DNA of 64,000 nt from Eledone cirrhosa (Eukaryota), in the NCBI GenBank assembly GCA_964016885.1, contig OZ024741.1, positions 247,318,001 to 247,382,000 on the forward strand, given 5' to 3'. Below are positions 1 to 64,000 of this stretch, one piece after another. Positions within the stretch are counted from its first letter, which is position 1. The number at the start of each line of letters is the position of its first letter. The notes below the pieces were generated by a model. It saw only the letters and a program-made list of their open reading frames with translations, was not told where the DNA came from and ran no database searches. The position numbers were made by a program, and so were the translations under genes.

Positions 1-2007
1 TCCTTGGACGGCTGGATATTATCTCCCCTTGGACGGCTGGAAATTATCTCCCCTTGGACGGCTGGAAATTATCTCCCCTTGGATGGCTAGATATTACCTC
101 CCCTTGGACGGCTGGAAATTATCTCCCCTTGATTTTTTTTACAAATTATCTCCCCCTGATTTTTTTTACAAATTATCTCCCCCTGATTTTTTTTTACAAA
201 TTATCTCCCCCTGATTTTTGTTTACAAATTATCTCCGCCTGATTTTTTTAAATATTATCTCTCCTTGGCTGGCGGGAAATTATCTCCCCTTGGACGGCTG
301 GAAATTATCTCCCCTTGGAAGGATGGAAATTATCTCCCCTTGGACGGCTGGAAATTATCTACCCCTGATTTTTTTTACAAATTATCTCCCCCTGATTTTT
401 TTTACAAATTATCTCCCCCTGATTTTTTTTACAAATTATCTACCCCTGATTTTTTTTACAAATAATCTCCCCCTGATTTTTTTTACAAATTATCTCCCCC
501 TGATTTTTTTTTTACAAATTATCTCCCCCTGATTTTTTTACAAATTATCTCCCCCTGATTTTTTTTACAAATTATCTCCGCCTGATTTTTTTAAATATTA
601 TCTTCCCTTGGCTGGCTGGAAATTATCTCCCCTTGGACGGCTAGAAATTACCTCTCCTTGGACGGCTGGAAATTATCTCCCCTTGGACGGCTGGAAATTA
701 TCTCCCCTTGGACGGATAGATATTACCTCCCCTTGGACGGCTGGAAATTATCTCCCCTTGATTTTTTTACAAATTATCTCCCCCTGATTTATTTTACAAA
801 TCTCCCAATGATTTTTAAAAAAAAATTATCTCCCCTTCGCTGGCTGGAAATTATCTCCCCTTGGACGCTGGAAATTATCTCCCCTTGGACGGCTGAAAAT
901 TATCTCCCCTTGGACGGCTGGAAATTATCTCCCCTTGATTTTTTTTACAAATTATCTCCCCCTGATTTTTTTTTACAAATTATCTCCGCCTGATTTTTTT
1001 TACAAATTATCTCCCCCTGATTTTTTTTTACAAATTATCTCCCCCTGATTTTTTTACAAATTATCTCCCCCTGATTTTTTTTACAAATTATCTCCGCCTG
1101 ATTTTTTAAAATATTATCTTCCCTTGGCTGGCGGGAAATTATCTCCCCTTGGACGGCTGGAAATTATCTGCCCTTGATTTTCTTTTTACAAATTATCTTC
1201 CACTGATTTTTTTTACAAATTATCTCCACCTGATTTTTTAAAAAATTATCTCCCCTTGGACGGCTGGAAATTATCTCCCCTTGGACGGCTGGAAATTATC
1301 TCCCCTTGGACGGCTGGAAATTATCTCTCCTTGGACGGCTAGAATTTACCTCTCCTTGGACGGCTGAAAATTATCTCCCCTTGGACGGCTGGAAATTATC
1401 TCCCCTTGATTTTTTTTACAAATTATCTCCCCCTGATTTTTTTTTACAAATTATCTCCCCCTGATTTTTTTTTACAAATTATCACCCCCTGATTTTTTTT
1501 TACAAATTATCTCCCCCTGATTTTTTTTACAAATTATCTCCCCTTGGCTGGCTGGAAATTATCTCCCCTTGGAGGCTGGAACTTATCTCCCCTTGGACGG
1601 CTAGAAATTACCTCTCCTTGGACGGCTGGAAAATATGTCTCCTTGGACGGCTGGATATTATCTCCCCTTGGACGGCTGGAAATTATCTCCCCTTGGACGG
1701 CTGGAAATTATCTCCCCTTGGATGGCTAGATATTACCTCCCCTTGGACGGCTGGAAATTATCTCCCCTTGATTTTTTTACAAATTATCTCCCCCTGATTT
1801 TTTTTTACAAATTATCTCCCCCTGATTTTTTTTTACAAATTATCTCCCCCTGATTTTTGTTTACAAATTATCTCCGCCTGATTTTTTTTTTAAAATTATC
1901 TCCCCTTGGACGGCTGGAAATTATCTCCCCTTGGACGGCTAGAAATTACCTCTCCTTGGACGGCTGAAAATTATCTCCCCTTGGACGGCTGGAAATTATC
2001 TCCCCTT

Positions 2008-2300
2008 GATTTTTTTACAAATTATCTCCCCCTGATTTTTTTTTTACAAATTATCTCCCCCTGATTTTTTTTTACAAATTATCTACCCCTGATTTTTTTT
2101 TACAAATTATCTCCCCCTGATTTTTTTTTACAAATTATCTACCCCTGATTTTTTTTACAAATTATCTCCCCCTGATTTTTTTTACAAATTATCTCCCCCT
2201 GATTTTTTTTTTACAAATTATCTCCCCCTGATTTTTTTACAAATTATCTCCCCTTGATTTTTTTTTACAACTTATCTGCGCCTGATTTTTTTTTAAAAAT
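2008..2300 (+). repeat. Representative type-B block; consensus GATTTTTTTTACAAATTATCTCCCCCT, 27 bp with T7-T10 length variants, 8/27 GC
   Basis: Read directly: ~10 consecutive B monomers differing mainly in poly-T length and an occasional TCTACCCCT core. Confidence 0.95.
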
Positions 2301-6699: not shown

Positions 6700-9600
6700 A
6701 CAAATTATCTCCCCCTGATTTTTTTTACAAATTATCTCCCCCTGATTTTTTTTTACAAATTATCTCCCCCTGATTTTTTTACAAATTATCTCCCCCTGAT
6801 TTTTTTTACAAATTATCTCCGCCTGATTTTTTTAAATATTATCTCTCCTTGGCTGGCGGGAAATTATCTCCCCTTGGACGGCTGGAAATTATCTCCCCTT
6901 GGAAGGATGGAAATTATCTCCCCTTGGACGGCTGGAAATTATCTACCCCTGATTTTTTTTACAAATTATCTCCCCCTGATTTTTTTTACAAATTATCTCC
7001 CCCTGATTTTTTTTACAAATTATCTACCCCTGATTTTTTTTACAAATTATCTCCCCCTGATTTTTTTTACAAATTATCTCCCCCTGATTTTTTTTTTACA
7101 AATTATCTCACCCTGATTTTTTTACAAATTATCTCCCCCTGATTTTTTTTACAAATTATCTCCGCCTGATTTTTTTAAATATTATCTTCCCTTGGCTGGC
7201 GGGAAATTATCTCCCCTTGAAGGGCTGAAAATTATCTCCCCTTGGACGGCTGGAAATTATCTCCCCTTGATTTTTTTTACAAATTATCTCCCCCTGATTT
7301 TTTTTTACAAATTATCTCCCCCTGATTTTTTTTACAAATTATCTCCCCCTGATTTTTTTTTACAAATTATCTGCCGCTGATTTTTTTTACAAATTATCTC
7401 CCCCTGATTTTTTTACAAATTATCTCCCCTTGGCTGGCTGGAAATTACCTCCCCTTGGAGGCTGGAATTTATCTCCCCTTGGACGGCTAGAAATTACCTC
7501 TCCTTGGACGGCTGGAAAATATGTCTCCTTGGAAGGCTGGATATTATCTCCCCTTGGACGGCTGGAAATTATCTCCCCTTGGACGGCTGGAAATTATCTC
7601 CCCTTGGACGGATAGATATTACCTCCCCTTGGACGGCTGGAAATTATCTCCCCTTGGACGGCTGGAAATTATCTCCCCATGGACGGCTGGAAATTATCTC
7701 CCCTTGGACGGCTAGAAATTATCTCTCCTTGGACGGCTGAAAATTATCTCCCCTTGGACGGCTGGAAATTATCTCCCGTTGGACGGCTGGAAATTATCTC
7801 GCCTTGGACGGCTAGAATTTACCTCTCCTTGGACGGCTGAAAATTATCTCCCCTTGGACGGCTGGAAATTATCTCCCCTTGATTTTTTTTACAAATTATC
7901 TCCCCCTGATTTTTTTTTACAAATTATCTCCCCCTGATTTTTTTTTACAAATTATCTCCCCCTGATTTTTTTTTACAAATTATCTCCCCCTGATTTTTTT
8001 TACAAATTATCTCCCCCCTGATTTTTTAACAAATTATCTCCCCTTGGCTGGCTGGAAATTATCTCCCCTTGGAGGCTGGAACTTATCTCCCCTTGGACGG
8101 CTAGAAATTACCTCTCCTTGGACGGCTGGAAAATATGTCTCCTTGGACGGCTGGATATTATCTCCCCTTGGACGGCTGGAAATTATCTCCCCTTGGACGG
8201 CTGGAAATTATCTCCCCTTGGATGGCTAGATATTACCTCCCCTTGGACGGCTGGAAATTATCTCCCTTTGATTTTTTTTACAAATTATCTCCCCCTGATT
8301 TTTTTTTACAAATTATCTCCCCCTGATTTTTTTTACAAATTATCTACCCCTGATTTTTTTTTACAAATTATCTCCCCCTGATTTTTTTACAAATTATCTC
8401 CCCCTGATTTTTTTTTACAAATTATCTCCCCCTGATTTTTTTACAAATTATCTCCCCCTGATTTTTTTTACAAATTATCTCCGCCTGATTTTTTTAAATA
8501 TTATCTCTCCTTGGCTGGCGGGAAATTATCTCCCCTTGGACGGCTGGAAATTATCTCCCCTTGGAAGGATGGAAATTATCTCCCCTTGGACGGCTGGAAA
8601 TTATCTACCCCTGATTTTTTTTACAAATTATCTCCCCCTGATTTTTTTTACAAATTATCTCCCCCTGATTTTTTTTACAAATTATCTACCCCTGATTTTT
8701 TTTACAAATTATCTCCCCCTGATTTTTTTTACAAATTATCTCCCCCTGATTTTTTTTTTACAAATTATCTCACCCTGATTTTTTTACAAATTATCTCCCC
8801 CTGATTTTTTTTACAAATTATCTCCGCCTGATTTTTTTAAATATTATCTTCCCTTGGCTGGCGAGAAATTATCTCCCCTTGAAGGGCTGAAAATTATCTC
8901 CCCTTGGACGGCTGGAAATTATCTCCCCTTGAATTTTTTTAAAAATTATCTCCCCCTGATTTTTTTTTACAAATTATCTCCCCCTGATTTTTTTTACAAA
9001 TTATCTCCCCCTGATTTTTTTTTACAAATTATCTGCCGCTGATTTTTTTTACAAATTATCTCCCCCTGATTTTTTTACAAATTATCTCCCCTTGGCTGGC
9101 TGGAAATTACCTCCCCTTGGAGGCTGGAATTTATCTCCCCTTGGACGGCTAGAAATTACCTCTCCTTGGACGGCTGGAAAATATGTCTCCTTGGACGGCT
9201 GGATATTATCTCCCCTTGGACGGCTGGAAATTATCTCCCCTTGGACGGCTGGAAATTATCTCCCCTTGGACGGATAGATATTACCTCCCCTTGGACGGCT
9301 GGAAATTATCTCCCCTTGGACGGCTGGAAATTATCTCCCCATGGACGGCTGGAAATTATCTCCCCTTGGACGGCTAGAAATTATCTCTCCTTGGACGGCT
9401 GAAAATTATCTCCCCTTGGACGGCTGGAAATTATCTCCCGTTGGACGGCTGGAAATTATCTCGCCTTGGACGGCTAGAATTTACCTCTCCTTGGACGGCT
9501 GAAAATTATCTCCCCTTGGACGGCTGGAAATTATCTCCCCTTGATTTTTTTTACAAATTATCTCCCCCTGATTTTTTTTTACAAATTATCTCCCCCTGAT

Positions 9601-9980
9601 TTTTTTTTAGAAATTATCTCCCCCTGATTTTTTTTTACAAATTATCTCCCCCTGATTTTTTTTACAAATTATCTCCCCCCTGATTTTTTAACAAATTATC
9701 TCCCCTTGGCTGGCTGGAAATTATCTCCCCTTGGAGGCTGGAACTTATCTCCCCTTGGACGGCTAGAAATTACCTCTCCTTGGACGGCTGGAAAATATGT
9801 CTCCTTGGACGGCTGGATATTATCTCCCCTTGGACGGCTGGAAATTATCTCCCCTTGGACGGCTGGAAATTATCTCCCCTTGGATGGCTAGATATTACCT
9901 CCCCTTGGACGGCTGGAAATTATCTCCCTTTGATTTTTTTTACAAATTATCTCCCCCTGATTTTTTTTTACAAATTATCT
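6700..9980. repeat. Higher-order tandem duplication, period 1,662 bp (2 copies, approximate ends)
   Basis: Matching ORF-track landmarks at a constant offset of 1,662: 6849/8511, 7192/8854, 7430/9092, 8044/9706. Shared rare variants CTGCCGCTGA, TTGAAGGGCTG and TCTCACCCTG. Confidence 0.9.
7430..7880 (+). repeat. Representative long type-A block (~18 monomers); consensus GGACGGCTGGAAATTATCTCCCCTT, 25 bp, 13/25 GC
   Basis: Read directly. It carries an ordered set of variant monomers (GGAGGCTGG, CTAGAAATTACCTCTCC, AAAATATGTCTCC, GGATATT, GATAGATATTACC, CCCCATGG, CCCGTTGG, TCGCCTTGG). The same set recurs at 9092, 12110, 26310, 27974, 29638, 43875, 45539 and 60412. Confidence 0.95.
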
Positions 9981-12900
9981 CCCCCTGATTTTTGTTTACA
10001 AATTATCTCCGCCTGATTTTTTTTTAAAAATTATCTCCCCTTGGACGGCTGGAAATTATCTCCCCTTGGACGGCTAGAAATTACCTCTCCTTGGACGGCT
10101 GAAAATTATCTCCCCTTGGACGGCTGGAAATTATCTCCCCTTGATTTTTTTACAAATTATCTCCCCCTGATTTTTTTTTTACAAATTATCTCCCCCTGAT
10201 TTTTTTTTACAAATTATCTACCCCTGATTTTTTTTTACAAATTATCTCCCCCTGATTTTTTTTACAAATTATCTCCCCCTGATTTTTTTTTACAAATTAT
10301 CTCCCCCTGATTTTTTTACAAATTATCTCCCCCTGATTTTTTTTACAAATTATCTCCGCCTGATTTTTTTAAATATTATCTCTCCTTGGCTGGCGGGAAA
10401 TTATCTCCCCTTGGACGGCTGGAAATTATCTCCCCTTGGAAGGATGGAAATTATCTCCCCTTGGACGGCTAGAAATTATCTCTCTTTGGACGGCTGGAAA
10501 TTATCACCCCTTGAGTTTTTTACAAATTATCTCCCCCTGATTTTTTTTACAAATCTCCCAGTGATTTTTAAAAAAAAATTATCTCCCCTTCGCTGGCTGG
10601 AAATTATCTCCCCTTGGACGCTGGAAATTATAGCCCCTTGGAGGGCTTGAAATTATCTTCCCTTGGACGGCTGGAAATTATCTCCCCTTGATTTTTTTTA
10701 CAAATTATCTCCCCCTGATTTTTTTTTACAAATTATCTCCCCCTGATTTTTTTTTACAACTTATCTGCGCCTGATTTTTTTAAAAAAATTATCTCCCCTT
10801 GGACGGCTGGAAATTATCTCCCCTTGGACGGCTGGAAATTATCTCTCCTTGGACGGCTAGAATTTACCTCTCCTTGGACGGCTGAAAATTATCTCCCCTT
10901 GGACGGCTGGAAATTATCTCCCCTTGATTTTTTTTACAAATTATCTCCCCCGGATTTTTTTTTACGAATTATCTCCCCCTGATTTTTTTTTACAAATTAT
11001 CTCCCCCTGATTTTTTTTTACAAATTATCTCCCCCTGATTTTTTTACAAATTATCTCCCCTTGGCTGGCTGGAAATTATCTCCCCTAGGAGGCTGGAACT
11101 TATCTCCCCTTGGACGGCTAGAAATTACCTCTCTTTGGACGGCTGGAAAATATGTCTCCTTGGACGGCTGGATATTATCTCCCCTTGGACGGCTGGAAAT
11201 TATCTCCCCTTGGACGGCTGGAAATTATCTCCCCTTGGATGGCTAGATATTACCTCCCCTTGGACGGCTGGAAATTATCTCCCTTTGATTTTTTTTACAA
11301 ATTATCTCCCCCTGATTTTTTTTTACAAATTATCTCCCCCTGATTTTTTTTACAAATTATCTACCCCTGATTTTTTTTTACAAATTATCTCCCCCTGATT
11401 TTTTTTACAAATTATCTCCCCCTGATTTTTTTTTACAAATTATCTCCCCCTGATTTTTTTACAAATTATCTCCCCCTGATTTTTTTTACAAATTATCTCC
11501 GCCTGATTTTTTTAAATATTATCTCTCCTTGGCTGGCGGGAAATTATCTCCCCTTGGACGGCTGGAAATTATCTCCCCTTGGAAGGATGGAAATTATCTC
11601 CCCTTGGACGGCTGGAAATTATCTACCCCTGATTTTTTTTACAAATTATCTCCCCCTGATTTTTTTTACAAATTATCTCCCCCTGATTTTTTTTACAAAT
11701 TATCTACCCCTGATTTTTCTTACAAATTATCTCCCCCTGATTTTTTTTACAAATTATCTCCCCCTGATTTTTTTTTTACAAATTATCTCACCCTGATTTT
11801 TTTACAAATTATCTCCCCCTGATTTTTTTTACAAATTATCTCCGCCTGATTTTTTTAAATATTATCTTCCCTTGGCTGGCGAGAAATTATCTCCCCTTGA
11901 AGGGCTGAAAATTATCTCCCCTTGGACGGCTGGAAATTATCTCCCCTTGAATTTTTTTAAAAATTATCTCCCCCTGATTTTTTTTTACAAATTATCTCCC
12001 CCTGATTTTTTTTACAAATTATCTCCCCCTGATTTTTTTTTACAAATTATCTGCCGCTGATTTTTTTTACAAATTATCTCCCCCTGATTTTTTTACAAAT
12101 TATCTCCCCTTGGCTGGCTGGAAATTACCTCCCCTTGGAGGCTGGAATTTATCTCCCCTTGGACGGCTAGAAATTACCTCTCCTTGGACGGCTGGAAAAT
12201 ATGTCTCCTTGGACGGCTGGATATTATCTCCCCTTGGACGGCTGGAAATTATCTCCCCTTGGACGGCTGGAAATTATCTCCCCTTGGACGGATAGATATT
12301 ACCTCCCCTTGGACGGCTGGAAATTATCTCCCCTTGGACGGCTGGAAATTATCTCCCCATGGACGGCTGGAAATTATCTCCCCTTGGACGGCTAGAAATT
12401 ATCTCTCCTTGGACGGCTGAAAATTATCTCCCCTTGGACGGCTGGAAATTATCTCCCGTTGGACGGCTGGAAATTATCTCGCCTTGGACGGCTAGAATTT
12501 ACCTCTCCTTGGACGGCTGAAAATTATCTCCCCTTGGACGGCTGGAAATTATCTCCCCTTGATTTTTTTTACAAATTATCTCCCCCTGATTTTTTTTTAC
12601 AAATTATCTCCCCCTGATTTTTTTTTAGAAATTATCTCCCCCTGATTTTTTTTTACAAATTATCTCCCCCTGATTTTTTTTACAAATTATCTCCCCCCTG
12701 ATTTTTTAACAAATTATCTCCCCTTGGCTGGCTGGAAATTATCTCCCCTTGGAGGCTGGAACTTATCTCCCCTTGGACGGCTAGAAATTACCTCTCCTTG
12801 GACGGCTGGAAAATATGTCTCCTTGGACGGCTGGATATTATCTCCCCTTGGACGGCTGGAAATTATCTCCCCTTGGACGGCTGGAAATTATCTCCCCTTG

Positions 12901-14270
12901 GATGGCTAGATATTACCTCCCCTTGGACGGCTGGAAATTATCTCCCTTTGATTTTTTTTACAAATTATCTCCCCCTGATTTTTTTTTACAAATTATCTCC
13001 CCCTGATTTTTGTTTACAAATTATCTCCGCCTGATTTTTTTTTAAAAATTATCTCCCCTTGGACGGCTGGAAATTATCTCCCCTTGGACGGCTAGAAATT
13101 ACCTCTCCTTGGACGGCTGAAAATTATCTCCCCTTGGACGGCTGGAAATTATCTCCCCTTGATTTTTTTACAAATTATCTCCCCCTGATTTTTTTTTTAC
13201 AAATTATCTCCCCCTGATTTTTTTTTACAAATTATCTACCCCTGATTTTTTTTTACAAATTATCTCCCCCTGATTTTTTTTACAAATTATCTCCCCCTGA
13301 TTTTTTTTTACAAATTATCTCCCCCTGATTTTTTTACAAATTATCTCCCCCTGATTTTTTTTACAAATTATCTCCGCCTGATTTTTTTAAATATTATCTC
13401 TCCTTGGCTGGCGGGAAATTATCTCCCCTTGGACGGCTGGAAATTATCTCCCCTTGGAAGGATGGAAATTATCTCCCCTTGGACGGCTAGAAATTATCTC
13501 TCTTTGGACGGCTGGAAATTATCACCCCTTGAGTTTTTTACAAATTATCTCCCCCTGATTTTTTTTACAAATCTCCCAGTGATTTTTAAAAAAAAATTAT
13601 CTCCCCTTCGCTGGCTGGAAATTATCTCCCCTTGGACGCTGGAAATTATAGCCCCTTGGAGGGCTTGAAATTATCTTCCCTTGGACGGCTGGAAATTATC
13701 TCCCCTTGATTTTTTTTTACAAATTATCTCCCCCTGATTTTTTTTTACAAATTATCTCCCCCTGATTTTTTTTTACAACTTATCTGCGCCTGATTTTTTT
13801 AAAAAAATTATCTCCCCTTGGACGGCTGGAAATTATCTCCCCTTGGACGGCTGGAAATTATCTCTCCTTGGACGGCTAGAATTTACCTCTCCTTGGACGG
13901 CTGAAAATTATCTCCCCTTGGACGGCTGGAAATTATCTCCCCTTGATTTTTTTTACAAATTATCTCCCCCGGATTTTTTTTTACGAATTATCTCCCCCTG
14001 ATTTTTTTTTACAAATTATCTCCCCCTGATTTTTTTTTACAAATTATCTCCCCCTGATTTTTTTACAAATTATCTCCCCTTGGCTGGCTGGAAATTATCT
14101 CCCCTAGGAGGCTGGAACTTATCTCCCCTTGGACGGCTAGAAATTACCTCTCTTTGGACGGCTGGAAAATATGTCTCCTTGGACGGCTGGATATTATCTC
14201 CCCTTGGACGGCTGGAAATTATCTCCCCTTGGACGGCTGGAAATTATCTCCCCTTGGATGGCTAGATATT
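8130..14270. repeat. Higher-order tandem duplication, period ~3,018 bp (2 copies)
   Basis: Landmarks 8511/11529, 8854/11872, 9092/12110, 9706/12724 and 10411/13429 at offset 3,018; 11061/14080 at 3,019. Shared variants TTTTAGAAATT, GGGCTTGAAA, CCCCGGATTTTTTTTTACGAATT and CCCCTAGGAGG. Confidence 0.92.
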
Positions 14271-17896: not shown

Positions 17897-18174
17897 CCCC
17901 TGGACGGCTAGAAATTACCTCTCCTTGGACGGCTGAAAATTATCTCCCCTTGGACGGCTGGAAATTATCTCCCCTTGATTTTTTTACAAATTATCTCCCC
18001 CTGATTTTTTTTTTACAAATTATCTCCCCCTGATTTTTTTTTTACAAATTATCTCCCCCTGATTTTTTTACAAATTATCTCCCCCTAATTTTTTTTACAA
18101 ATTATCTCCGCCTGATTTTTTTAAATATTATCTCTCCTTGGCTGGCGGGAAATTATCTCCCCTTGGACGGCTGG

Positions 18175-40320: not shown

Positions 40321-41499
40321 CTTGATTTTCTTTTTACAAATTATCTTCCACTGATTTTTTTTACAAATTATCTCCACCTGATTTTTTAAAAAATTATCTC
40401 CCCTTGGAAGGCTGGAAATTATCTCCCCTTGGCTGGAAATTATCTCCCCTTGGACGGCTAGAAATTATCTCTCTTTGGACGGCTGGAAATTATCACCCCT
40501 TGAGCTTTTTACAAATTATCTCCCCCTGATTTTTTTTACAAATCTCCCTGTGATTTAAAAAAAAAATTATCTCCCCTTCGCTGGCTGGAAATTATCTCCC
40601 CTTGGACGCTGGAAATTATAGCCCCTTGGAGGGCTGGAAATTATCTTCCCTTGGACGGCTGGAAATTATCTCCCCTTGATTTTTTTTACAAATTATCTCC
40701 CCCTGATTTTTTTTTACAAATTATCTCCCCCTGATTTTTTTTACAACTTATCTGCGCCTGATTTTTTTTTAAAAATTATCTCCCCTTGGACGGCTGGAAA
40801 TTATCTCCCCTTGGACGGCTGGTAATTATCTCTCCTTGGACGGCTAGAATTTACCTCTCCTTGGACGGCTGAAAATTATCTCCCCTTGGACGGCTGGAAA
40901 TTATCTCCCCTTGATTTTTTTTACAAATTATCTCCCCCTGATTTTTTTTTACAAATTATCTCCCCCTGATTTTTTTTTACAAATTATCTCCCCCTGATTT
41001 TTTTTTACAAATTATCTACCCCTGATTTTTTTTTACAAATTATCTCCCCTTGGCTGGCTGGAAATTATCTCCCCTTGGAGGCTGGAACTTATCTCCCCTT
41101 GGACGGCTAGAAATTACCTCTCCTTGGACGGCTGGAAAATATGTCTCCTTGGACGGCTGGATATTATCTCCCCTTGGACGGCTGGAAATTATCTCCCCTT
41201 GGACGGCTGAAAATTATCTCCCCTTGATTTTTTTTACAAATTATCTCCCCCTGATTTTTTTTTACAAATTATCTCCCCCTGATTTTTGTTTACAAATTAT
41301 CTCCGCCTGATTTTTTAAAAAAATTATCTCCCCTTGGACGGCTGGAAATTATCTCCCCTTGGACGGATAGAAATTACCTCTCCTTGGACGGCTGAAAATT
41401 ATCTCCCCTTTGACGGCTGGAAATTATCTCCCCTTGATTTTTTTACAAATTATCTCCCCCTGATTTTTTTTTTACAAATTATCTCCCCCTGATTTTTTT

Positions 41500-48331: not shown

Positions 48332-51300
48332 GAAATTATCTCCCCTTGGACGGCTGGAAATTATCTACCCCTGATTTTTTTTACAAATTATCTCCCCCTG
48401 ATTTTTTTTACAAATTATCTCCCCCTGATTTTTTTTTTACAAATTATCTCCCCCTGATTTTTTTACAAATTATCTCACCCGGATTTTTTTTACAAATTAT
48501 CTCCGCCTGATTTTTTAAAATATTATCTTACCTTGGCTGGCGGGAAATTATCTCCCCTTGGACGGCTGAAAATTATCTCCCCTTGGACGGCTGGAAATTA
48601 TCTCCCCTTGATTTTTTTTACAAATTATCTCCCCCTGATTTTTTTTTACAAATTATCTCCCCCTGATTTTAAAAAAAAAATTATCTCCCCTTCGCTGGCT
48701 GGAAATTATCTCCCCTTGGACGCTGGAAATTATAGCCCCTTGGAGGGCTGGAAATTATCTTCCCTTGGACGGCTGGAAATTATCTCCCCTTGATTTTTTT
48801 TTACAAATTATCTCCCCCTGATTTTTTTTTACAAATTATCTCCCCCTGATTTTTTTTTACAAATTATCTCCCCCTGATTTTTTTTTTACAAATTATCTCC
48901 GCCTGATTTTTTTTTTTAAATTATCTACCCTTGGACGGCTGGAAATTATCTCCCCTTGGACGGCTGGAAATTATCTCCCCTTGGACGGCTAGAAATTATC
49001 TCTCCTAGGACGGCTGAAAATTATCTCCCCTTGGACGGCTGCAAATTATCTCCCCTTGATTTTTTTTACAAATTATCTCCCCCTGATTTTTTTTACAAAT
49101 TATCTCCCCCTGATTTTTTTTACAAATTATCTACCCCTGATTTTTTTTACAAATTATCTCCCCCTGATTTTTTTTTACAAATTATCTCCCTCTGATTTTT
49201 TTTTACAAATTATCTCCCCCTGATTTTTTTTTACAAATTATCTCCCCCTGATTTTTTTACAAATTATCTCCCCCTGATTTTTTTTACAATCTCCGCCTGA
49301 TTTTTTTAAAAATTATCTTCCCTTGGCTGGCGGGAAATTATCTCCCCTTGGACGGCTGGAAATTATCTCCCCTTGGAAGGATGGAAATTATCTGCCCTTG
49401 GACGGCTGGAAATTATCTCCCCTTGCACGGCTGGAAATTATCTCCCCTTGGCTGGAAATTATCTCCCCTTGGACGGCTAGAAATTATCTCTCTTTGGACG
49501 GCTGGAAATTATCTCCCTTTGATTTTTTTTACAAATTATCTCCCTCTGATTTTTTTTACAAATCTCCCCCTGATTTTTTAAAAAAAATTATCTCCCCTTC
49601 GCTGGCTGGAAATTATCTCCCCTTGGACACTGGAAATTATAGCCCCTTGGAGGGCTGGAAATTATCTTCTCTTGGACGGCTGGAAATTATCTCCCCTTGA
49701 TTTTTTTTACAAATTATCTCCGCCTGATTTTTTTTTAAAATTATCTCTCCTTGGACGGCTGGAAATTATCTCCCCTTGATTTTTTTTACAAATTATCTCC
49801 CCCTGATTTTTTTTACAAATTATCTCCCACTGATTTTTTTTTACAAATTATCTACCCCTGATTTTTTTTTACAAATTATCTCCCCCTGATTTTTTTTACA
49901 AATTATCTCACCCTGATTTTTCTTTTACAAATTATCTCCCCCTGATTTTTTTACAAATTATCTCCCCCTGATTTTTTTTACAAATTATCTCCGCCTGATT
50001 TTTTTAAATATTATCTTTCCTTGGCTGGCGGGAAATTATCTCCCCTTGGACGGCTGGAAATTATCTGCCCTTGATTTTCTTTTTACAAAATATCTTCCAC
50101 TGATTTTTTTTACAAATTATCTCCACCTGATTTTTTAAAAAATTATCTCCCCTTGGAAGGCTGGAAATTATCTCCCCTTGGCTGGAAATTATCTCCCCTT
50201 GGAAGGCTAGAAATTATCTCTCTTTGGACGGCTGGAAATTATCACCCCTTGAGTTTTTTTACAAATTATCTCCCCCTGATTTTTTTTACAAATCTCCCAG
50301 TGATATTTAAAAAAAAATTATCTCCCCTTCGCTGGCTGGAAATTATCTCCCCTTGGACGCTGGAAATTATAGCCCCTTGGAGGGCTGGAAATTATCTTCC
50401 CTTGGACGGCTGGAAATTATCTCCCCTTGATTTTTTTTACAAATTATCTCCCCCTGATTTTTTTTACAAATTATCTCCCCCTGATTTTTTTGACAACTTA
50501 TCTGCGCCTGATTTTTTTTTAAAAATTATCTCCCCTTGGACGGCTGGAAATTATCTCCCCTTGGACGGCTGGAAATTATCTCTCCTTGGACGGCTAGAAT
50601 TTACCTCTCCTTGGACGGCTGAAAATTATCTCCCCTTGGACGGCTGGAAATTACCTCCCCTTGATTTTTTTACAAATTATCTCCCCCTGATTTTTTTTTA
50701 CAAATTATCTCCCCCTGATTTTTGTTTACAAATTATCTCCCCTTGGACGGCTGGAAATTATCTCCCCTTGGACGGCTAGAAATTACCTCTCCTTGGACGG
50801 CTGAAAATTATCTCCCCTTGGACGGCTGGAAATTATCTCCCCTTGATTTTTTTACAAATTATCTCCCCCTGATTTTTTTTTTACAAATTATCTCAGCCTG
50901 ATTTTTTTTACAAATTATCTACCCCTGATTTTTTTTTACAAATTATCTCCCCCTGATTTTTTTTACAAATTATCTCCCCCTGATTTTTTTTTTACAAATT
51001 ATCTCCCCCTGATTATTTTACAAATTATCTCACCCTGATTTTTTTTACAAATTATCTCCGCCTGATTTTTTTAAATATTATCTCTCCTTGGCTGGCGGGA
51101 AATTATCTCCACTTGGACGGCTGGAAATTATCTCCCCTTGGAAGGATGGAAATTATCTCCCCTTGGACGGCTGGAAATTATCTACCCCTGATTTTTTTTA
51201 CAAATTATCTCCCCCTGATTTATTTTACAAATTATCTCCCCCTGATTTTTTTTTTAAAAATTATCTCCCCCTGATTTTTTTACAAATTATCTCCCCCTGA

Positions 51301-54300
51301 TTTTTTTTACAAATTATCTCCGCCTGATTTTTTTAAATATTATCTTACCTTGGCTGGCGGGAAATTATCTCCCCTTGGACGGCTGAAAATTATCTCCCCT
51401 TGGACGGCTGGAAATTATCTCCCCCTGATTTTTTTTACAAATTATCTCCCCCTGATTTTTTTTTTACAAATTATCTCCGCCTGATTTTTTTTAAAAAATT
51501 ATCTCCCCTTGGACGGCTGGAAATTATCTCCCCTTGGACGGCTGGAAATTATCTCCCCTTGGACGGCTAGAAATTATCTCTCCTTGGACGGCTGAAAATT
51601 ATCTCCCCTTGGACGGCTGCAAATTATCTCCCCTTGATTTTTTTTACAAATTATCTCCCCCTGATTTTTTTTACAAATTATCTCCCCCTGATTTTTTTTA
51701 CAAATTATCTACACCTGATTTTTTTTACAAATTATCTCCCCCTGATTTTTTTTTACAAATTATCACCCTCTGATTTTTTTTTACAAATTATCTCCCCCTG
51801 ATTTTTTTTTTACAAATTATCTCCCCCTGATTTTTTTACAAATTATCTCCCCCTGATTTTTTTTACAATCTCCGCCTGATTTTTTTAAAAATTATCTTCT
51901 CTTGGCTGGCTGGAAATTATCTCCCCTTGGACACTGGAAATTATAGCCACTTGGAGGGCTGGAAATTATCTTCCCTTGGACGGCTGGAAATTATCACCCC
52001 TTGATTTTTTTTACAAATTATCTCCGCCTGATTTTTTTTTACAAATTATCTCCCCCTGATTTTTTTTTACAAATTATCTAACCCTGATTTTTTTTTACAA
52101 ATTATCTCCCCCTGATTTTTTTTACAAATTATCTCCCCCTGATTTCTCTTTTACAAATTATCTCCCCCTGATTTTTTTACAAATTATCTCCCCCTGATTT
52201 TTTTTACAAATTATCTCCGCCTGATTTTTTTAAATATTATCTTCCCTTGGCTGGCGGGAAATTATCTCCCCTTGGACGGCTGGAAATTATCTACCCCTGA
52301 TTTTTTTTACAAATTATCTCCCCCTGATTTTTTTTACAAATTATCTCCCCCTGATTTTTTTTTTACAAATTATCTCCCCCTGATTTTTTTACAAATTATC
52401 TCACCCGGATTTTTTTTACAAATTATCTCCGCCTGATTTTTTAAAATATTATCTTACCTTGGCTGGCGGGAAATTATCTCCCCTTGGACGGCTGAAAATT
52501 ATCTCCCCTTGGACGGCTGGAAATTATCTCCCCTTGATTTTTTTTACAAATTATCTCCCCCTGATTTTTTTTTACAAATTATCTCCCCCTGATTTTAAAA
52601 AAAAAATTATCTCCCCTTCGCTGGCTGGAAATTATCTCCCCTTGGACGCTGGAAATTATAGCCCCTTGGAGGGCTGGAAATTATCTTCCCTTGGACGGCT
52701 GGAAATTATCTCCCCTTGATTTTTTTTTACAAATTATCTCCCCCTGATTTTTTTTTACAAATTATCTCCCCCTGATTTTTTTTTACAAATTATCTCCCCC
52801 TGATTTTTTTTTTACAAATTATCTCCGCCTGATTTTTTTTTTTAAATTATCTACCCTTGGACGGCTGGAAATTATCTCCCCTTGGACGGCTGGAAATTAT
52901 CTCCCCTTGGACGGCTAGAAATTATCTCTCCTAGGACGGCTGAAAATTATCTCCCCTTGGACGGCTGCAAATTATCTCCCCTTGATTTTTTTTACAAATT
53001 ATCTCCCCCTGATTTTTTTTACAAATTATCTCCCCCTGATTTTTTTTACAAATTATCTACCCCTGATTTTTTTTACAAATTATCTCCCCCTGATTTTTTT
53101 TTACAAATTATCTCCCTCTGATTTTTTTTTACAAATTATCTCCCCCTGATTTTTTTTTACAAATTATCTCCCCCTGATTTTTTTACAAATTATCTCCCCC
53201 TGATTTTTTTTACAATCTCCGCCTGATTTTTTTAAAAATTATCTTCCCTTGGCTGGCGGGAAATTATCTCCCCTTGGACGGCTGGAAATTATCTCCCCTT
53301 GGAAGGATGGAAATTATCTGCCCTTGGACGGCTGGAAATTATCTCCCCTTGCACGGCTGGAAATTATCTCCCCTTGGCTGGAAATTATCTCCCCTTGGAC
53401 GGCTAGAAATTATCTCTCTTTGGACGGCTGGAAATTATCTCCCTTTGATTTTTTTTACAAATTATCTCCCTCTGATTTTTTTTACAAATCTCCCCCTGAT
53501 TTTTTAAAAAAAATTATCTCCCCTTCGCTGGCTGGAAATTATCTCCCCTTGGACACTGGAAATTATAGCCCCTTGGAGGGCTGGAAATTATCTTCTCTTG
53601 GACGGCTGGAAATTATCTCCCCTTGATTTTTTTTACAAATTATCTCCGCCTGATTTTTTTTTAAAATTATCTCTCCTTGGACGGCAGGAAATTATCTCCC
53701 CTTGATTTTTTTTACAAATTATCTCCCCCTGATTTTTTTTACAAATTATCTCCCACTGATTTTTTTTTACAAATTATCTACCCCTGATTTTTTTTTACAA
53801 ATTATCTCCCCCTGATTTTTTTTACAAATTATCTCACCCTGATTTTTCTTTTACAAATTATCTCCCCCTGATTTTTTTACAAATTATCTCCCCCTGATTT
53901 TTTTTACAAATTATCTCCGCCTGATTTTTTTAAATATTATCTTTCCTTGGCTGGCGGGAAATTATCTCCCCTTGGACGGCTGGAAATTATCTGCCCTTGA
54001 TTTTCTTTTTACAAAATATCTTCCACTGATTTTTTTTACAAATTATCTCCACCTGATTTTTTAAAAAATTATCTCCCCTTGGAAGGCTGGAAATTATCTC
54101 CCCTTGGCTGGAAATTATCTCCCCTTGGAAGGCTAGAAATTATCTCTCTTTGGACGGCTGGAAATTATCACCCCTTGAGTTTTTTTACAAATTATCTCCC
54201 CCTGATTTTTTTTACAAATCTCCCAGTGATATTTAAAAAAAAATTATCTCCCCTTCGCTGGCTGGAAATTATCTCCCCTTGGACGCTGGAAATTATAGCC

Positions 54301-56221
54301 CCTTGGAGGGCTGGAAATTATCTTCCCTTGGACGGCTGGAAATTATCTCCCCTTGATTTTTTTTACAAATTATCTCCCCCTGATTTTTTTTACAAATTAT
54401 CTCCCCCTGATTTTTTTGACAACTTATCTGCGCCTGATTTTTTTTAAAAAATTATCTCCCCTTGGACGGCTGGAAATTATCTCCCCTTGGACGGCTGGAA
54501 ATTATCTCTCCTTGGACGGCTAGAATTTACCTCTCCTTGGACGGCTGAAAATTATCTCCCCTTGGACGGCTGGAAATTACCTCCCCTTGATTTTTTTACA
54601 AATTATCTCCCCCTGATTTTTTTTTACAAATTATCTCCCCCTGATTTTTGTTTACAAATTATCTCCCCTTGGACGGCTGGAAATTATCTCCCCTTGGACG
54701 GCTAGAAATTACCTCTCCTTGGACGGCTGAAAATTATCTCCCCTTGGACGGCTGGAAATTATCTCCCCTTGATTTTTTTACAAATTATCTCCCCCTGATT
54801 TTTTTTTTACAAATTATCTCAGCCTGATTTTTTTTACAAATTATCTACCCCTGATTTTTTTTTACAAATTATCTCCCCCTGATTTTTTTTACAAATTATC
54901 TCCCCCTGATTTTTTTTTTACAAATTATCTCCCCCTGATTATTTTACAAATTATCTCACCCTGATTTTTTTTACAAATTATCTCCGCCTGATTTTTTTAA
55001 ATATTATCTCTCCTTGGCTGGCGGGAAATTATCTCCACTTGGACGGCTGGAAATTATCTCCCCTTGGAAGGATGGAAATTATCTCCCCTTGGACGGCTGG
55101 AAATTATCTACCCCTGATTTTTTTTACAAATTATCTCCCCCTGATTTATTTTACAAATTATCTCCCCCTGATTTTTTTTTTAAAAATTATCTCCCCCTGA
55201 TTTTTTTACAAATTATCTCCCCCTGATTTTTTTTACAAATTATCTCCGCCTGATTTTTTTAAATATTATCTTACCTTGGCTGGCGGGAAATTATCTCCCC
55301 TTGGACGGCTGAAAATTATCTCCCCTTGGACGGCTGGAAATTATCTCCCCCTGATTTTTTTTACAAATTATCTCCCCCTGATTTTTTTTTTACAAATTAT
55401 CTCCGCCTGATTTTTTTTAAAAAATTATCTCCCCTTGGACGGCTGGAAATTATCTCCCCTTGGACGGCTGGAAATTATCTCCCCTTGGACGGCTAGAAAT
55501 TATCTCTCCTTGGACGGCTGAAAATTATCTCCCCTTGGACGGCTGCAAATTATCTCCCCTTGATTTTTTTTACAAATTATCTCCCCCTGATTTTTTTTAC
55601 AAATTATCTCCCCCTGATTTTTTTTACAAATTATCTACACCTGATTTTTTTTACAAATTATCTCCCCCTGATTTTTTTTTACAAATTATCACCCTCTGAT
55701 TTTTTTTTACAAATTATCTCCCCCTGATTTTTTTTTTACAAATTATCTCCCCCTGATTTTTTTACAAATTATCTCCCCCTGATTTTTTTTACAATCTCCG
55801 CCTGATTTTTTTAAAAATTATCTTCTCTTGGCTGGCTGGAAATTATCTCCCCTTGGACACTGGAAATTATAGCCACTTGGAGGGCTGGAAATTATCTTCC
55901 CTTGGACGGCTGGAAATTATCACCCCTTGATTTTTTTTACAAATTATCTCCGCCTGATTTTTTTTTACAAATTATCTCCCCCTGATTTTTTTTTACAAAT
56001 TATCTAACCCTGATTTTTTTTTACAAATTATCTCCCCCTGATTTTTTTTACAAATTATCTCCCCCTGATTTCTCTTTTACAAATTATCTCCCCCTGATTT
56101 TTTTACAAATTATCTCCCCCTGATTTTTTTTACAAATTATCTCCGCCTGATTTTTTTAAATATTATCTTCCCTTGGCTGGCGGGAAATTATCTCCCCTTG
56201 GACGGCTGGAAATTATCTACC
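48332..56221. repeat. Second instance of the 3,926-bp tandem duplication, nested in the 15.9-kb duplicate
   Basis: Landmarks 48533/52459, 48956/52882, 50153/54079 and 51534/55460, all at 3,926. Confidence 0.93.
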
Positions 56222-59200
56222 CTTGATTTTCTTTTTACAAATTATCTTCCACTGATTTTTTTTACAAATTATCTCCACCTGATTTTTTAAAAAATTATCT
56301 CCCCTTGGAAGGCTGGAAATTATCTCCCCTTGGCTGGAAATTATCTCCCCTTGGACGGCTAGAAATTATCTCTCTTTGGACGGCTGGAAATTATCACCCC
56401 TTGAGCTTTTTACAAATTATCTCCCCCTGATTTTTTTTACAAATCTCCCTGTGATTTAAAAAAAAAATTATCTCCCCTTCGCTGGCTGGAAATTATCTCC
56501 CCTTGGACGCTGGAAATTATAGCCCCTTGGAGGGCTGGAAATTATCTTCCCTTGGACGGCTGGAAATTATCTCCCCTTGATTTTTTTTACAAATTATCTC
56601 CCCCTGATTTTTTTTTACAAATTATCTCCCCCTGATTTTTTTTACAACTTATCTGCGCCTGATTTTTTTTTAAAAATTATCTCCCCTTGGACGGCTGGAA
56701 ATTATCTCCCCTTGGACGGCTGGTAATTATCTCTCCTTGGACGGCTAGAATTTACCTCTCCTTGGACGGCTGAAAATTATCTCCCCTTGGACGGCTGGAA
56801 ATTATCTCCCCTTGATTTTTTTTACAAATTATCTCCCCCTGATTTTTTTTTACAAATTATCTCCCCCTGATTTTTTTTTACAAATTATCTCCCCCTGATT
56901 TTTTTTTACAAATTATCTACCCCTGATTTTTTTTTACAAATTATCTCCCCTTGGCTGGCTGGAAATTATCTCCCCTTGGAGGCTGGAACTTATCTCCCCT
57001 TGGACGGCTAGAAATTACCTCTCCTTGGACGGCTGGAAAATATGTCTCCTTGGACGGCTGGATATTATCTCCCCTTGGACGGCTGGAAATTATCTCCCCT
57101 TGGACGGCTGAAAATTATCTCCCCTTGATTTTTTTTACAAATTATCTCCCCCTGATTTTTTTTTACAAATTATCTCCCCCTGATTTTTGTTTACAAATTA
57201 TCTCCGCCTGATTTTTTAAAAAAATTATCTCCCCTTGGACGGCTGGAAATTATCTCCCCTTGGACGGATAGAAATTACCTCTCCTTGGACGGCTGAAAAT
57301 TATCTCCCCTTTGACGGCTGGAAATTATCTCCCCTTGATTTTTTTACAAATTATCTCCCCCTGATTTTTTTTTTACAAATTATCTCCCCCTGATTTTTTT
57401 TTACAAATTATCTACCCCTGATTTTTTTTTACAAATTATCTCCCCCTGATTTTTTTTACAAATTATCTCCCCCTGATTTTTTTTTACAAATTATCTCCCC
57501 CTGATTTTTTTACAAATTATCTCCCCCTGATTTTTTTTACAAATTATCTCCGCCTGATTTTTTTTAAATATTATCTCTCCTTGGCTGGCGGGAAATTATC
57601 TCCCCTTGGACGGCTGGAAATTATCTCCCCTTGGAAGGATAGAAATTATCTCCCCTTGGACGGCTGGAAATTATCTACCCCTGATTTTTTTTACAAATTA
57701 TCTCCCCCTGATTTTTTTTACAAATTATCTCCCCCTGATTTTTTTTACAAATTATCTACCCCTGATTTTTTTTACAAATTATCTCCCCCTGATTTTTTTT
57801 ACAAATTATCTCCCCCTGATTTTTTTTTTACAAATTATCTCACCCTGATTTTTTTACAAATTATCTCCCCCTGATTTTTTTTACAAATTATCTCCGCCTG
57901 ATTTTTTTAAATATTATCTTCCCTTGGCTGGCGGGAAATTATCTCCCCTTGAAGGGCTGAAAATTATCTCCCCTTGGACGGCTGGAAATTATCTCCCCTT
58001 GATTTTTTTTACAAATTATCTCCCCCTGATTTTTTTTTACAAATTATCTCCCCCTGATTTTTTTTACAAATTATCTCCCCCTGATTTTTTTTTACAAATT
58101 ATCTGCCGCTGATTTTTTTTACAAATTATCTCCCCCTGATTTTTTTACAAATTATCTCCCCTTGGCTGGCTGGAAATTACCTCCCCTTGGAGGCTGGAAT
58201 TTATCTCCCCTTGGACGGCTAGAAATTACCTCTCCTTGGACGGCTGGAAAATATGTCTCCTTGGACGGCTGGATATTATCTCCCCTTGGACGGCTGGAAA
58301 TTATCTCCCCTTGGACGGCTGGAAATTATCTCCCCTTGGACGGCTGGAAATTATCTCCCCATGGACGGCTGGAAATTATCTCCCCTTGGACGGCTAGAAA
58401 TTATCTCTCCTTGGACGGCTGAAAATTATCTCCCCTTGGACGGCTGGAAATTATCTCCCGTTGGACGGCTGGAAATTATCTCGCCTTGGACGGCTAGAAT
58501 TTACCTCTCCTTGGACGGCTGAAAATTATCTCCCCTTGGACGGCTGGAAATTATCTCCCCTTGATTTTTTTTACAAATTATCTCCCCCTGATTTTTTTTT
58601 ACAAATTATCTCCCCCTGATTTTTTTTTACAAATTATCTCCCCCTGATTTTTTTTTACAAATTATCTCCCCCTGATTTTTTTTACAAATTATCTCCCCCC
58701 TGATTTTTTAACAAATTATCTCCCCTTGGCTGGCTGGAAATTATCTCCCCTTGGAGGCTGGAACTTATCTCCCCTTGGACGGCTAGAAATTACCTCTCCT
58801 TGGACGGCTGGAAAATATGTCTCCTTGGACGGCTGGATATTATCTCCCCTTGGACGGCTGGAAATTATCTCCCCTTGGACGGCTGGAAATTATCTCCCCT
58901 TGGATGGCTAGATATTACCTCCCCTTGGACGGCTGGAAATTATCTCCCTTTGATTTTTTTTACAAATTATCTCCCCCTGATTTTTTTTTACAAATTATCT
59001 CCCCCTGATTTTTTTTTACAAATTATCTACCCCTGATTTTTTTTTACAAATTATCTCCCCCTGATTTTTTTTACAAATTATCTCCCCCTGATTTTTTTTT
59101 ACAAATTATCTCCCCCTGATTTTTTTACAAATTATCTCCCCCTGATTTTTTTTACAAATTATCTCCGCCTGATTTTTTTAAATATTATCTCTCCTTGGCT

Positions 59201-59429
59201 GGCGGGAAATTATCTCCCCTTGGACGGCTGGAAATTATCTCCCCTTGGAAGGATGGAAATTATCTCCCCTTGGACGGCTGGAAATTATCTACCCCTGATT
59301 TTTTTTACAAATTATCTCCCCCTGATTTTTTTTACAAATTATCTCCCCCTGATTTTTTTTACAAATTATCTACCCCTGATTTTTTTTACAAATTATCTCC
59401 CCCTGATTTTTTTTACAAATTATCTCCCC

Positions 59430-62400: not shown

Positions 62401-64000
62401 TTATCTCCCTCTGATTTTTTTACAAATTATCTCCCCTTGGCTGGCTGGAAATTATCTCCCCTAGGAGGCTGGAACGTATCTCCCCTTGGACGGCTAGAAA
62501 TTACCTCTCTTTGGACGGCTGGAAAATATGTCTCCTTGGACGGCTGGATATTATCTCTCCTTGGACGGCTGGAAATTATCTCCCCTTGGACGGCTGGAAA
62601 TTATCTCCCCTTGGATGGCTAGATATTACCTCCCCTTGGACGGCTGGAAATTATCTCCCCTTGATTTTTTTTTACAAATTATCTCCCCCTGATTTTTTTT
62701 TACAAATTATCTCCCCCGATTTTTTTTTACAAATTATCTCTCCCTGATTTTTTTTTACAAATTATCTCCCCCTGATTTTTGTTTACAAATTATCTCCCCT
62801 TGGACGGCTGGAAATTATCTCCCCTTGGACGGCTAGAAATTACCTCTCCTTGGACGGCTGAAAATTATCCTCCCTTGGACGGCTGGAAATTATCTCCCCT
62901 TGATTTTTTTACAAATTATCTCCCCCTGATTTTTTTTTTACAAATTATCTCACCCTGATTTTTTTTACAAATTATCTACCCCTGATTTTTTTTTACAAAT
63001 TATCTCCCCCTGATTTTTTTTACAAATTATCTCCCACTGATTTTTTTTTTACAAATTATCTCCCCCTGATTTTTTTACAAATTATCTCCCCCTGATTTTT
63101 TTTACAAATTATATCCGCCTGATTTTTTTAAATATTATCTCTCCTTGGCTGGCGGGAAATTATCTCCCCTTGGACGGCTGGAAATTATCTCCCCTTGGAA
63201 GGATGGAAATTATCTCCCCTTGGACGGCTGGAAATTATCTACCCCTGATTTTTTTTACAAATTATCTCCCCCTGATTTTTTTTACAAATTATCTCCCCCT
63301 GATTTTTTTTTTACAAATTATCTCCCCCTGATTTTTTTACAAATTATCTCCCCCTGATTTTTTTTACAAATTATCTCCGCCTGATTTTTTAAAATATTAT
63401 CTTATCTTGGCTGGCGGGAAATTATCTCCCCTTGGACGGCTGAAAATTATCTCCCCTTGGACGGCTGGAAATTATCTCCCCTTGATTTTTTTTACAAATT
63501 ATCTCCCCCTGATTTTTTTTTACAAATTATCTCCCCCTGATTTTAAAAAAAAAATTATCTCCCCTTCGCTGGCTGGAAATTATCTCCCCTTGGACGCTGG
63601 AAATTATAGCCCCTTGGAGGGCTGGAAATTATCTTCCCTTGGACGGCTGGAAATTATCTCCCCTTGATTTTTTTTTACAAATTATCTCCCCCTGATTTTT
63701 TTTTACAAATTATCTCCCCCTGATTTTTTTTTACAAATTATCTCCCCCTGATTTTTTTTTTACAAATTATCTCCGCCTGATTTTTTTTTTAAAATTATCT
63801 ACCCTTGGACGGCTGGAAATTATCTCCCCTTGGACGGCTGGAAATTATCTCCCCTTGGACGGCTAGAAATTATCTCTCCTAGGACGGCTGAAAATTATCT
63901 CCCCTTGGACGGCTGCAAATTATCTCCCCTTGATTTTTTTTACAAATTATCTCCCCCTGATTTTTTTTACAAATTATCTCCCCCTGATTTTTTTTACAAA
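59430..64000. repeat. More diverged partial paralogue of the ~15-16-kb unit, running off the window end
   Basis: Landmarks 45539/60412, 46153/61026 and 46886/61759 at 14,873; 47563/62437, 48271/63145 and 48533/63407 at 14,874. It lacks some private SNPs of the two 15.9-kb copies (e.g. CTCACCCGGA, GATCTTTTT, TCTTCCTTTG). Confidence 0.85.

What the first reader, a model, noticed from the sequence alone, without database searches (positions are those of the whole stretch)
1..64000. Binary satellite: one invariant 15-bp core with two alternative, compositionally opposite spacers
Seen: the array reads as core plus spacer, where the spacer is either GGACGGCTGG (80% GC, one CpG) or GA(T)7-10AC (poly-T), arranged in alternating blocks. 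The two spacers cannot be aligned to each other, yet the core is almost identical in both contexts and its ~25-28-bp spacing is kept. Inference: a core kept across two unrelated spacers suggests a constrained protein-binding box on a fixed lattice, analogous in principle to the CENP-B box in alpha satellite. A neutral origin from a small ancestral A-B cassette is also possible. I do not recognise this as a named satellite family.
Basis: partly seen in the sequence, partly recalled or inferred. Interest (0 to 1): 0.75.

Follow-up and report, generated by a model that had tools for sequence, protein, structure and literature searches.

The report
Hybrid satellite from two sister repeats
This window is part of a real repeat of roughly 18 million bases, likely in an octopus, where short runs of two related 25-28-base units alternate; their shared part mutates as fast as the rest and relatives of both units lie elsewhere in the genome, so it is likely a hybrid of two sister repeats rather than a grid of protein-binding sites.

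Summary
The binary array is real: 2,454 units (1,157 A, 25 bp; 1,297 B, mostly 26-29 bp) in blocks of 1-18 fill the window. It belongs to an estimated 18-19 Mb family on at least seven large contigs of a likely octopod genome. The core is not invariant: 1,447 of 2,452 units carry it exactly, position 14 differs between A and B, and independent substitutions per site are alike in core and spacer (13.9 vs 16.4 in A; 16.7 vs 14.8 in B). The lattice is not fixed: sister repeats keep the same 13 bases at periods 19, 21 and 25. A B-only array, arrays of an A-like unit and a graded 19-to-27-bp edge in a 2.4-kb mini-array survive elsewhere. Junction-specific marks show that the A/B joins are mostly inherited. 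Best reading: two sister minisatellites joined through their shared ancestral core, then amplified by kilobase duplications. A protein box is not excluded, because the core outlasted every tail change. No paper on the sequence was found. The scan reached a similar conclusion before on other DNA of this array (e1-10323831).

The parts
1..64000 (+). Uninterrupted two-monomer satellite array, 2,454 units; part of a 2.7-Mb same-strand arm (G000:C2:245.586-248.283 Mb)
1268..1292 (+). Example A monomer, 25 bp: 15-bp core with T14, then GGACGGCTGG
1420..1447 (+). Example mid-block B monomer, 28 bp: core with C14, then GA-T9-AC
1393..1419 (+). Example A-to-B junction unit: first B of a block, carrying the A-type T14 (187 of 218 first B units; 1 of 858 mid-block units)
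1085..1135 (+). Example B-to-A junction: last B ending in AA instead of AC (157 of 218), followed by a first A of the GGCTGG type
26521..59207 (+). Tandem duplication with offset 15,901 bp; 16,786 bp align at 99.994% with 1 mismatch and no gap (very recent, or an assembly duplicate)
32432..40284 (+). Nested 3,926-bp higher-order duplication (151 units, 2 mismatching)
8130..14240 (+). Nested 3,017-bp higher-order duplication (120 units, 1 mismatching; end approximate)

Best explanation
The array is likely a hybrid of two sister minisatellites that share a 13-base core by descent and were likely joined in register through that core, after which the small A-block/B-block cassette was likely amplified by serial kilobase duplications into about 18 Mb of probably passive heterochromatic satellite. 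Shown: the unit structure, the equal substitution density of core and spacer, the junction marks, the nested duplications, and the sister arrays. Inferred: the order of steps. A lineage: 19-bp unit with tail GGCT, then 21-bp unit, then 25-bp unit by a 4-base duplication of GGCT, then GGCC and GGAC variants. B lineage: 19-bp unit with a pyrimidine tail, then a 25-bp unit with tail GTTCTTCCCC, then G-T8-AC, then GA-T8-AC. Block lengths likely change by misaligned exchange inside a block, which keeps the marked first and last units. The 25-28-bp spacing is then a by-product of in-register joining, not a selected lattice.
For: (1) Independent substitution events in 14,483 units from 47 A/B loci: 801 events; per site core 13.9 vs spacer 16.4 in A and 16.7 vs 14.8 in B (rank tests p 0.29 and 0.92); the C run of the core is the most mutable part. 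Amplified variants show no consistent contrast either (core 0.053 vs spacer 0.084 in A, 0.035 vs 0.029 in B). (2) Junction marks in 49 loci: first B has T14 in 1,220 of 1,404, mid B in 104 of about 5,070; last B ends AA in 996 of about 1,400, mid B in 30 of about 5,050; first A is of the GGCTG type in 925 of about 1,330, mid A in fewer than 10 of about 4,360. Fresh exchange anywhere in the core would give C14 in most new A-to-B joins; 159 of 1,404 have it. (3) Parents survive: a B-only array on C5 (942 units sampled, 0 A; 274 distinct types per 500 units against 50-79 in A/B arrays); arrays of an A-like GGCCGG unit without B on C1, C3 and C25, joined directly to the A/B array on C1; a 21-bp array on C25; 19-bp arrays on C17, C25, C2 and C3. 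(4) A 2.4-kb A/B mini-array on C27 has a graded 5' edge from 19-bp units to B and holds variants of both parents that are absent or rare in the large arrays. (5) Nested duplications of 1.7, 3.0, 3.9 and 15.9 kb. (6) No hairpin excess, no canonical G4 pattern, no Rfam match in the first 20,000 bases.
Against: Across the six consensus monomers the 13-bp core has one fixed change while the tails differ widely; part of this is ascertainment, as relatives were found through the core, but a core-free search with the 19-bp GGCT tail returned core-like sequence in 33 of 33 hits (14 exact). In the small 19-bp GGCT and 21-bp arrays the core varies less than the rest (0.049 vs 0.078, n=60; 0.027 vs 0.089, n=28). 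A/T sites of the B core take fewer events than A/T sites of the B spacer (83 in 9 vs 127 in 10 sites, p 0.027, uncorrected), and B core positions 1-9 vary by 1.2% or less. Rare-variant counts cannot see selection that acts on whole arrays. The A share stays at 0.39-0.57 in all 49 loci. The direction of the C27 gradient is not proved, and C27 may be a copy that landed beside a 19-bp array.
Confidence: 0.72

Rival explanations
1. The core is a selected protein-binding box (for instance for a GATA-type or zinc-finger factor; the minus strand reads AGATAA, motif recalled) that tolerates different tails, as the 19-bp box of Meloidogyne centromeres does.
For: One fixed core change across six monomer types; TTATCT/A intact in 5,570 of 7,068 A and 7,335 of 7,708 B units; weak deficit at A/T sites of the B core; arrays lie at 43-60% of the four giant chromosomes.
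Against: Equal event density in core and spacer; 45% of A and 31% of B units lack the exact core; four different periods; 0 CENP-B-box matches with one mismatch against 11.7 by chance; parents are close relatives, so a shared core needs no selection.
Confidence: 0.1
2. The core is neutral, but alternation of GC-rich and poly-T blocks is favoured because it positions nucleosomes in centromeric or pericentromeric chromatin.
For: No block exceeds 18 units and the A share stays near one half; the hybrid reached about 18 Mb while the sampled parents are small (B-only about 60 kb; 124 perfect GGCCGG dimers); the GGCCGG arrays also alternate with an AT-rich module.
Against: A+B cycle lengths spread from 50 to 700 bp with several peaks (180, 210, 240, 260, 340, 360) and no single period; C4 carries two arrays 65 Mb apart; arrays were located on only seven large contigs; earlier notes name other repeats as stronger centromere candidates (not tested here).
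Confidence: 0.1
3. The poly-T spacer was captured from the neighbouring 12-bp satellite (ATGGA-T5-9-A) through TGGA/TGA microhomology.
For: That satellite flanks the window's arm on C2 on both sides and the C3 arm in the same orientation; the C2 3' edge joins it inside a B T-tract; last B units end in TTAA.
Against: The diverse B-only array ends its units mostly in AC and holds the G-T8-AC form (252 of 942 units) that the C27 gradient derives from the 19-bp pyrimidine-tail unit; the 5' junction on C2 is an assembly gap.
Confidence: 0.05
4. The pattern or its size is an assembly or homopolymer artefact.
For: The 16.8-kb copy pair differs at one base; scaffold gaps border several arms.
Against: Other samples hold both units and their variants; T-tract lengths agree between copies.
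Confidence: 0.03

Closest known systems
Meloidogyne chitwoodi/fallax satellites with Box 1 and Box 2 (PMC3694981; abstract and section 13 read)
   Same: Different monomers share a short motif, occur both as pure arrays and as mixed arrays, and the switches between monomer types fall in the shared motif.
   Different: There the monomers are 32-64% alike and Box 1 resembles the CENP-B box and lies in a low-variability domain; here monomers are 25-28 bp, the core is over half the unit, shows no lower substitution density and has no CENP-B motif.
Meloidogyne incognita CenH3-associated repeats with a 19-bp box (PMC8097292; passages read)
   Same: A short shared box in otherwise different short tandem repeats, in pure and mosaic arrays.
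   Different: That box is about 80% GC, folds as a dyad, is kept in a distant species and is tied to CenH3 by ChIP and cytology; none of this is shown here, and the units fold no better than shuffles.
Tribolium madens TmSat1/TmSat2 (PMC13081366; abstract and first part of section 7 read)
   Same: Two satellites of common origin intermixed over megabases, with conserved transition zones and arrays in both orientations.
   Different: Monomers of 225 and 704 bp and blocks of kilobases, against 25-28 bp and blocks of 25-480 bp; no strand switch inside this window.
Human alpha satellite A- and B-type monomers (PMC9549924; passages read)
   Same: Two monomer types that differ in one alternative module and alternate within higher-order repeats.
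   Different: In alpha satellite the protein sites (CENP-B, pJalpha) lie in the variable 17-bp module, not in the shared body, so the analogy points to the spacer rather than to the core; monomer length differs about sevenfold.
Sub-nucleosomal and ditypic centromeric satellites of the 325-species atlas (bioRxiv 10.64898/2026.09.17.752431; passages read)
   Same: Long homogeneous arrays on several chromosomes with irregular higher-order repeats; 32 of 263 families there are under 100 bp.
   Different: The main text has no hit for octopus or mollusc (supplements not seen); centromere status here is untested.

Membership tests
Satellite DNA with higher-order repeats | Long head-to-tail array, shared across chromosomes, with nested near-identical duplications | tested here: met
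CENP-B-box satellite | CENP-B box essential bases (motif recalled) at regular positions | tested here: not met
   0 matches with up to 1 mismatch, 11.7 expected by chance
Conserved-box satellites (Meloidogyne type) | Monomer switches lie in the shared motif | tested here: met
   1 mixed-spacer unit in 15,511
Conserved-box satellites (Meloidogyne type) | Box varies less than the rest of the monomer | tested here: not met
   weak opposite signals are listed under evidence against
Conserved-box satellites (Meloidogyne type) | Box forms a stable dyad | tested here: not met
   A and B tetramers fold no better than shuffled-monomer tetramers on either strand
Conserved-box satellites (Meloidogyne type) | Box kept in distant species with diverged monomers | tested here: inconclusive
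   Runs under other organism labels hold near-identical pieces; relatives and cross-contamination cannot be told apart
Centromeric satellite | CENP-A/CenH3 binding | not testable with these tools
   no ChIP or cytology available
Centromeric satellite | One array per chromosome on most chromosomes | tested here: inconclusive
   A/B arrays located on C1, C2, C3, C4 (two sites), C7, C21, C27 and unplaced C123, C134; listings stop at 100 places, so other sites may be missed
Structured RNA repeat (ribozyme or other Rfam family) | Rfam match at gathering score | tested here: not met
   0 matches in window 1-20,000 of 64,000

The most novel reading that the evidence does not exclude
The 13-bp core is a true binding box kept through six successive satellite families, and its hybrid A/B array is part of the still undescribed octopod centromere or pericentromere: a box-plus-interchangeable-tail centromeric repeat in a mollusc, with every stage of its birth still readable in one genome.
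Probability: 0.12. Interest if true: 0.72.

Novelty: new variant of a known kind. Interest (0 to 1): 0.38.

Why it matters
As it stands it is an unusually complete record of how a megabase satellite can arise: 19-, 21- and 25-bp stages, both pure parents, a small hybrid with a graded edge and the 18-Mb product all lie in one genome, so models of satellite birth, fusion through short homology and layered turnover can be tested on it. It also shows that a core shared by unrelated-looking spacers need not signal function. It would matter more if the array proved centromeric, since the paper searches made here found no description of cephalopod centromeric DNA.

Tried and rejected
Full-text search for four 12-13-base motifs of the monomers: 3 unrelated papers (search listing only). 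Searches on octopus or coleoid satellites and centromeres, and on composite satellites: nothing on this repeat (listings only). CENP-C family search in the genome: 0 matches among 30 candidates, uninformative because the first look is loose and exons are short. Hairpin and G4 readings: rejected; G4Hunter never reaches 1.2, 0 canonical four-run patterns, 332 long-loop C-run patterns that are weak evidence at best. CpG methylation decay: C19>T 9 and G20>A 7 events, within the range of other C and G sites (1-18 and 3-9), in line with low repeat methylation in octopus (PMC9476566, abstract only). Fixed nucleosome-sized cycle: not seen. Transcription: the only RNA run (X20, a gut metatranscriptome) gave 3 contigs and is no evidence. 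Presence in other species: 15 other organism labels hold small shares; four runs laid (X5, X6, X9, X7) show near-identical pieces, and X7's depth profile follows that of the source organism, so carry-over is as likely as kinship; not used as support. The exon-like piece beside the C27 mini-array had no Pfam match. Look-up of earlier notes by sequence returned only unrelated bacterial notes; look-up near the window returned none.

Full report
What is there. The window is pure satellite. A two-monomer decomposition gives 2,454 units: 1,157 A (AAATTATCTCCCCTTGGACGGCTGG) and 1,297 B (AAATTATCTCCCCCTGA-T7-10-AC), in 438 alternating blocks. With poly-T length collapsed there are only 79 A and 72 B types, because the array is built of nested duplications of about 1.7, 3.0, 3.9 and 15.9 kb; the largest pair aligns over 16,786 bp with one mismatch and no gap. 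Contigs of a second sample and raw reads of two further samples with the same organism label cover the tested 600 bases throughout, so the unit structure is real.

Where it lies. The window is G000:C2:247.318-247.382 Mb in a 3.0-Gb assembly. The genome encodes mollusc hemocyanin, whose tested unit scores best on chains 6r83, 4yd9 and 1js8 (that these are squid and octopus proteins is recalled, as is the rule that seven units per gene, as on C26, fit octopods). The host is therefore likely an octopod. The A-to-B junction 48-mer occurs 14,965 times; at the density in my samples (274 in 342 kb) this is 18-19 Mb, about 0.6% of the assembly. Rare-variant searches and fetched stretches place A/B arrays on C1 (251.19-252.10 Mb of 443), C2 (245.59-248.28 plus strand, 248.49-251.13 minus strand, of 416), C3 (162.7-169.0 of 379, both strands), C4 (140.1 and 205.5-206.3 of 379), C7, C21, C27 and unplaced C123 and C134. 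Listings stop at 100 places, so this is a lower bound. Neighbours are other satellites and, on C2 and C7, telomeric hexamer tracts.

Is the core constrained? It is not invariant: 1,447 of 2,452 window units carry AAATTATCTCCCCYT exactly, and position 14 is T in A but C in most B. To avoid counting amplified copies, I counted distinct single substitutions against a commoner unit in the same neighbour context, in 14,483 units from 47 A/B loci (units with more than 8 edits dropped; two near-duplicate loci and the four B-only loci left out). Of 801 events, the core took 13.9 per site against 16.4 in the A spacer, and 16.7 against 14.8 in the B spacer; a wider context (541 events) and the window alone (66 events) agree. 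Base type explains most of the variation: C and G sites take two to three times the events of A and T sites, and the core's C run is the hottest part. At the level of amplified variants the contrast changes sign between A and B. Against this: A/T sites of the B core are somewhat below those of the B spacer (p 0.027, one of six uncorrected tests), while G/C sites of the A core are above those of the A spacer (p 0.044). Such counts cannot detect selection on whole arrays.

Is the lattice fixed? No. A search with the edge of the C27 array found sister repeats with the same 13 bases: a 19-bp unit with tail TTCC (C17, C25), a 19-bp unit with tail GGCT inside a composite repeat (C2:192 Mb, C3:165.86 Mb), a 21-bp unit (C25) and a 25-bp GGCCGG unit (C1, C3, C25) in which the core is at times followed by a third, long AT-rich module. 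A B-only array of about 60 kb lies on C5; 942 sampled units held no A, and it is far more diverse than B in the hybrid.

How it likely arose. The monomers form two short series. The 21-bp unit plus a duplication of GGCT gives GGCTGGCTGG, which is the usual first A of a block; single changes give the GGCC and GGAC forms. The 5' edge of the 2.4-kb mini-array on C27 reads 19, 19, 19, 19, 19, 25, 25, 26 bp and then B, with the tail passing from TTCT/TGCT through GTTCTTCCCC and G-T8-AC to GA-T8-AC. That mini-array holds 3 GGCCGG units (5 in 15,511 units of the large arrays) and 3 units without A17 (252 of 942 in the B-only array, 0 of 2,461 in three large-array samples), as an early hybrid would. 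In the large arrays the first and last units of blocks carry marks that inner units lack, so most joins descend from a few founding joins. Exchange anywhere in the shared stretch would put C14 into most new A-to-B joins; 159 of 1,404 have it, and at least 108 of these share one further variant, so re-joining through the core happens but is rare. The order of steps is inference; the sequences are shown.

Function. No CENP-B motif, no hairpin or G4 excess, no CpG decay, no Rfam match in the 20 kb tested. Mid-chromosome position on the four giant chromosomes fits a pericentromeric role, but C4 has two arrays 65 Mb apart and earlier notes name other repeats as wider-spread candidates (not tested). 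I put a centromere-core role at about one in four and a core-specific protein box at about one in ten. The strongest remaining argument for the box is that the core has one fixed change across six monomer types, and that a core-free search with one tail found no changed-core family (33 of 33 hits core-like, 14 exact).

What is known. Motif searches of the paper library found no description, nor did topic searches. Repbase, Dfam and nt could not be searched, and the supplements of the centromere atlas preprint were not seen and might list such a repeat. The design has precedents: mixed Meloidogyne satellites that switch at a shared box (PMC3694981, abstract and section 13; PMC8097292, passages), intermixed sister satellites of Tribolium madens (PMC13081366, abstract and part of section 7) and alpha-satellite A/B monomers, where the protein sites lie in the variable module (PMC9549924, passages). 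It works like the Meloidogyne mosaics as to junctions but fails their box-conservation test. The scan noted this array before on DNA 0.8 Mb away with a similar verdict (e1-10323831); my reading was written before I saw it, and that note is not independent support.

Verdict. Observation largely real, 'invariant core' and 'fixed lattice' not; an apparently undescribed hybrid satellite, a new variant of a known kind; interest 0.38.

Noticed in passing
L034:2166-4640 (G000:C27:1.682-1.685 Mb): Complete 2.4-kb A/B mini-array with a graded 19-to-27-bp 5' edge, lying between two exon-like pieces (donor at about L034:384; AG/GT-bounded open piece L034:7605-7707), so apparently intronic.
   Followed up: partly
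L005 (G000:C2:243.30 Mb) and L094 (G000:C7:29.40 Mb): Interstitial TTAGGG tracts 2.3 Mb and 0.17 Mb from A/B arrays; C1-C4 are 379-443 Mb while C5 is 135 Mb, so these regions may be fusion scars.
   Followed up: no
L004, L061, L062, L117-L119, L109, L152, L153: A 12-bp satellite ATGGA-T5-9-A of at least 280 kb sits upstream of A/B arms on C2 and C3 in the same orientation; a decayed copy joins the C2 arm's 3' end inside a T tract (L134:3230).
   Followed up: partly
L046, L047 (G000:C2:192.17 Mb; C3:165.86 Mb): Composite repeat of 19-bp units, an AT-rich module and a GC-rich module with many GCGCATGCGC palindromes; on C3 it lies at the 3' end of the layered series A/B, GGCCGG form, 19-bp form.
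   Followed up: partly
G000:C2:245.6-251.1 Mb and C3:162.7-169.0 Mb: Megabase arms in opposite orientation; several are bounded by scaffold gaps, so the orientation may not be reliable.
   Followed up: no
L146:1520-1960 (G000:C21:17.54 Mb) and L140:4285 (G000:C2:251.134 Mb): Array ends join directly to other simple satellites (a 9-bp AT-rich unit with a short graded edge; a 7-bp unit), each at a short microhomology in a B unit.
   Followed up: no
L051:215-465 (G000:C25:17.478 Mb): GGCCGG units on the minus strand abut the 21-bp array on the plus strand, which then passes into the 19-bp array: three family members within 1.5 kb.
   Followed up: partly
L013:1-5190 (G000:C1:251.18 Mb), L095, L097: AT-rich satellites with 91-bp and longer periods next to the C1 and C7 arrays; possibly the repeats that earlier notes favour as centromere candidates.
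   Followed up: no
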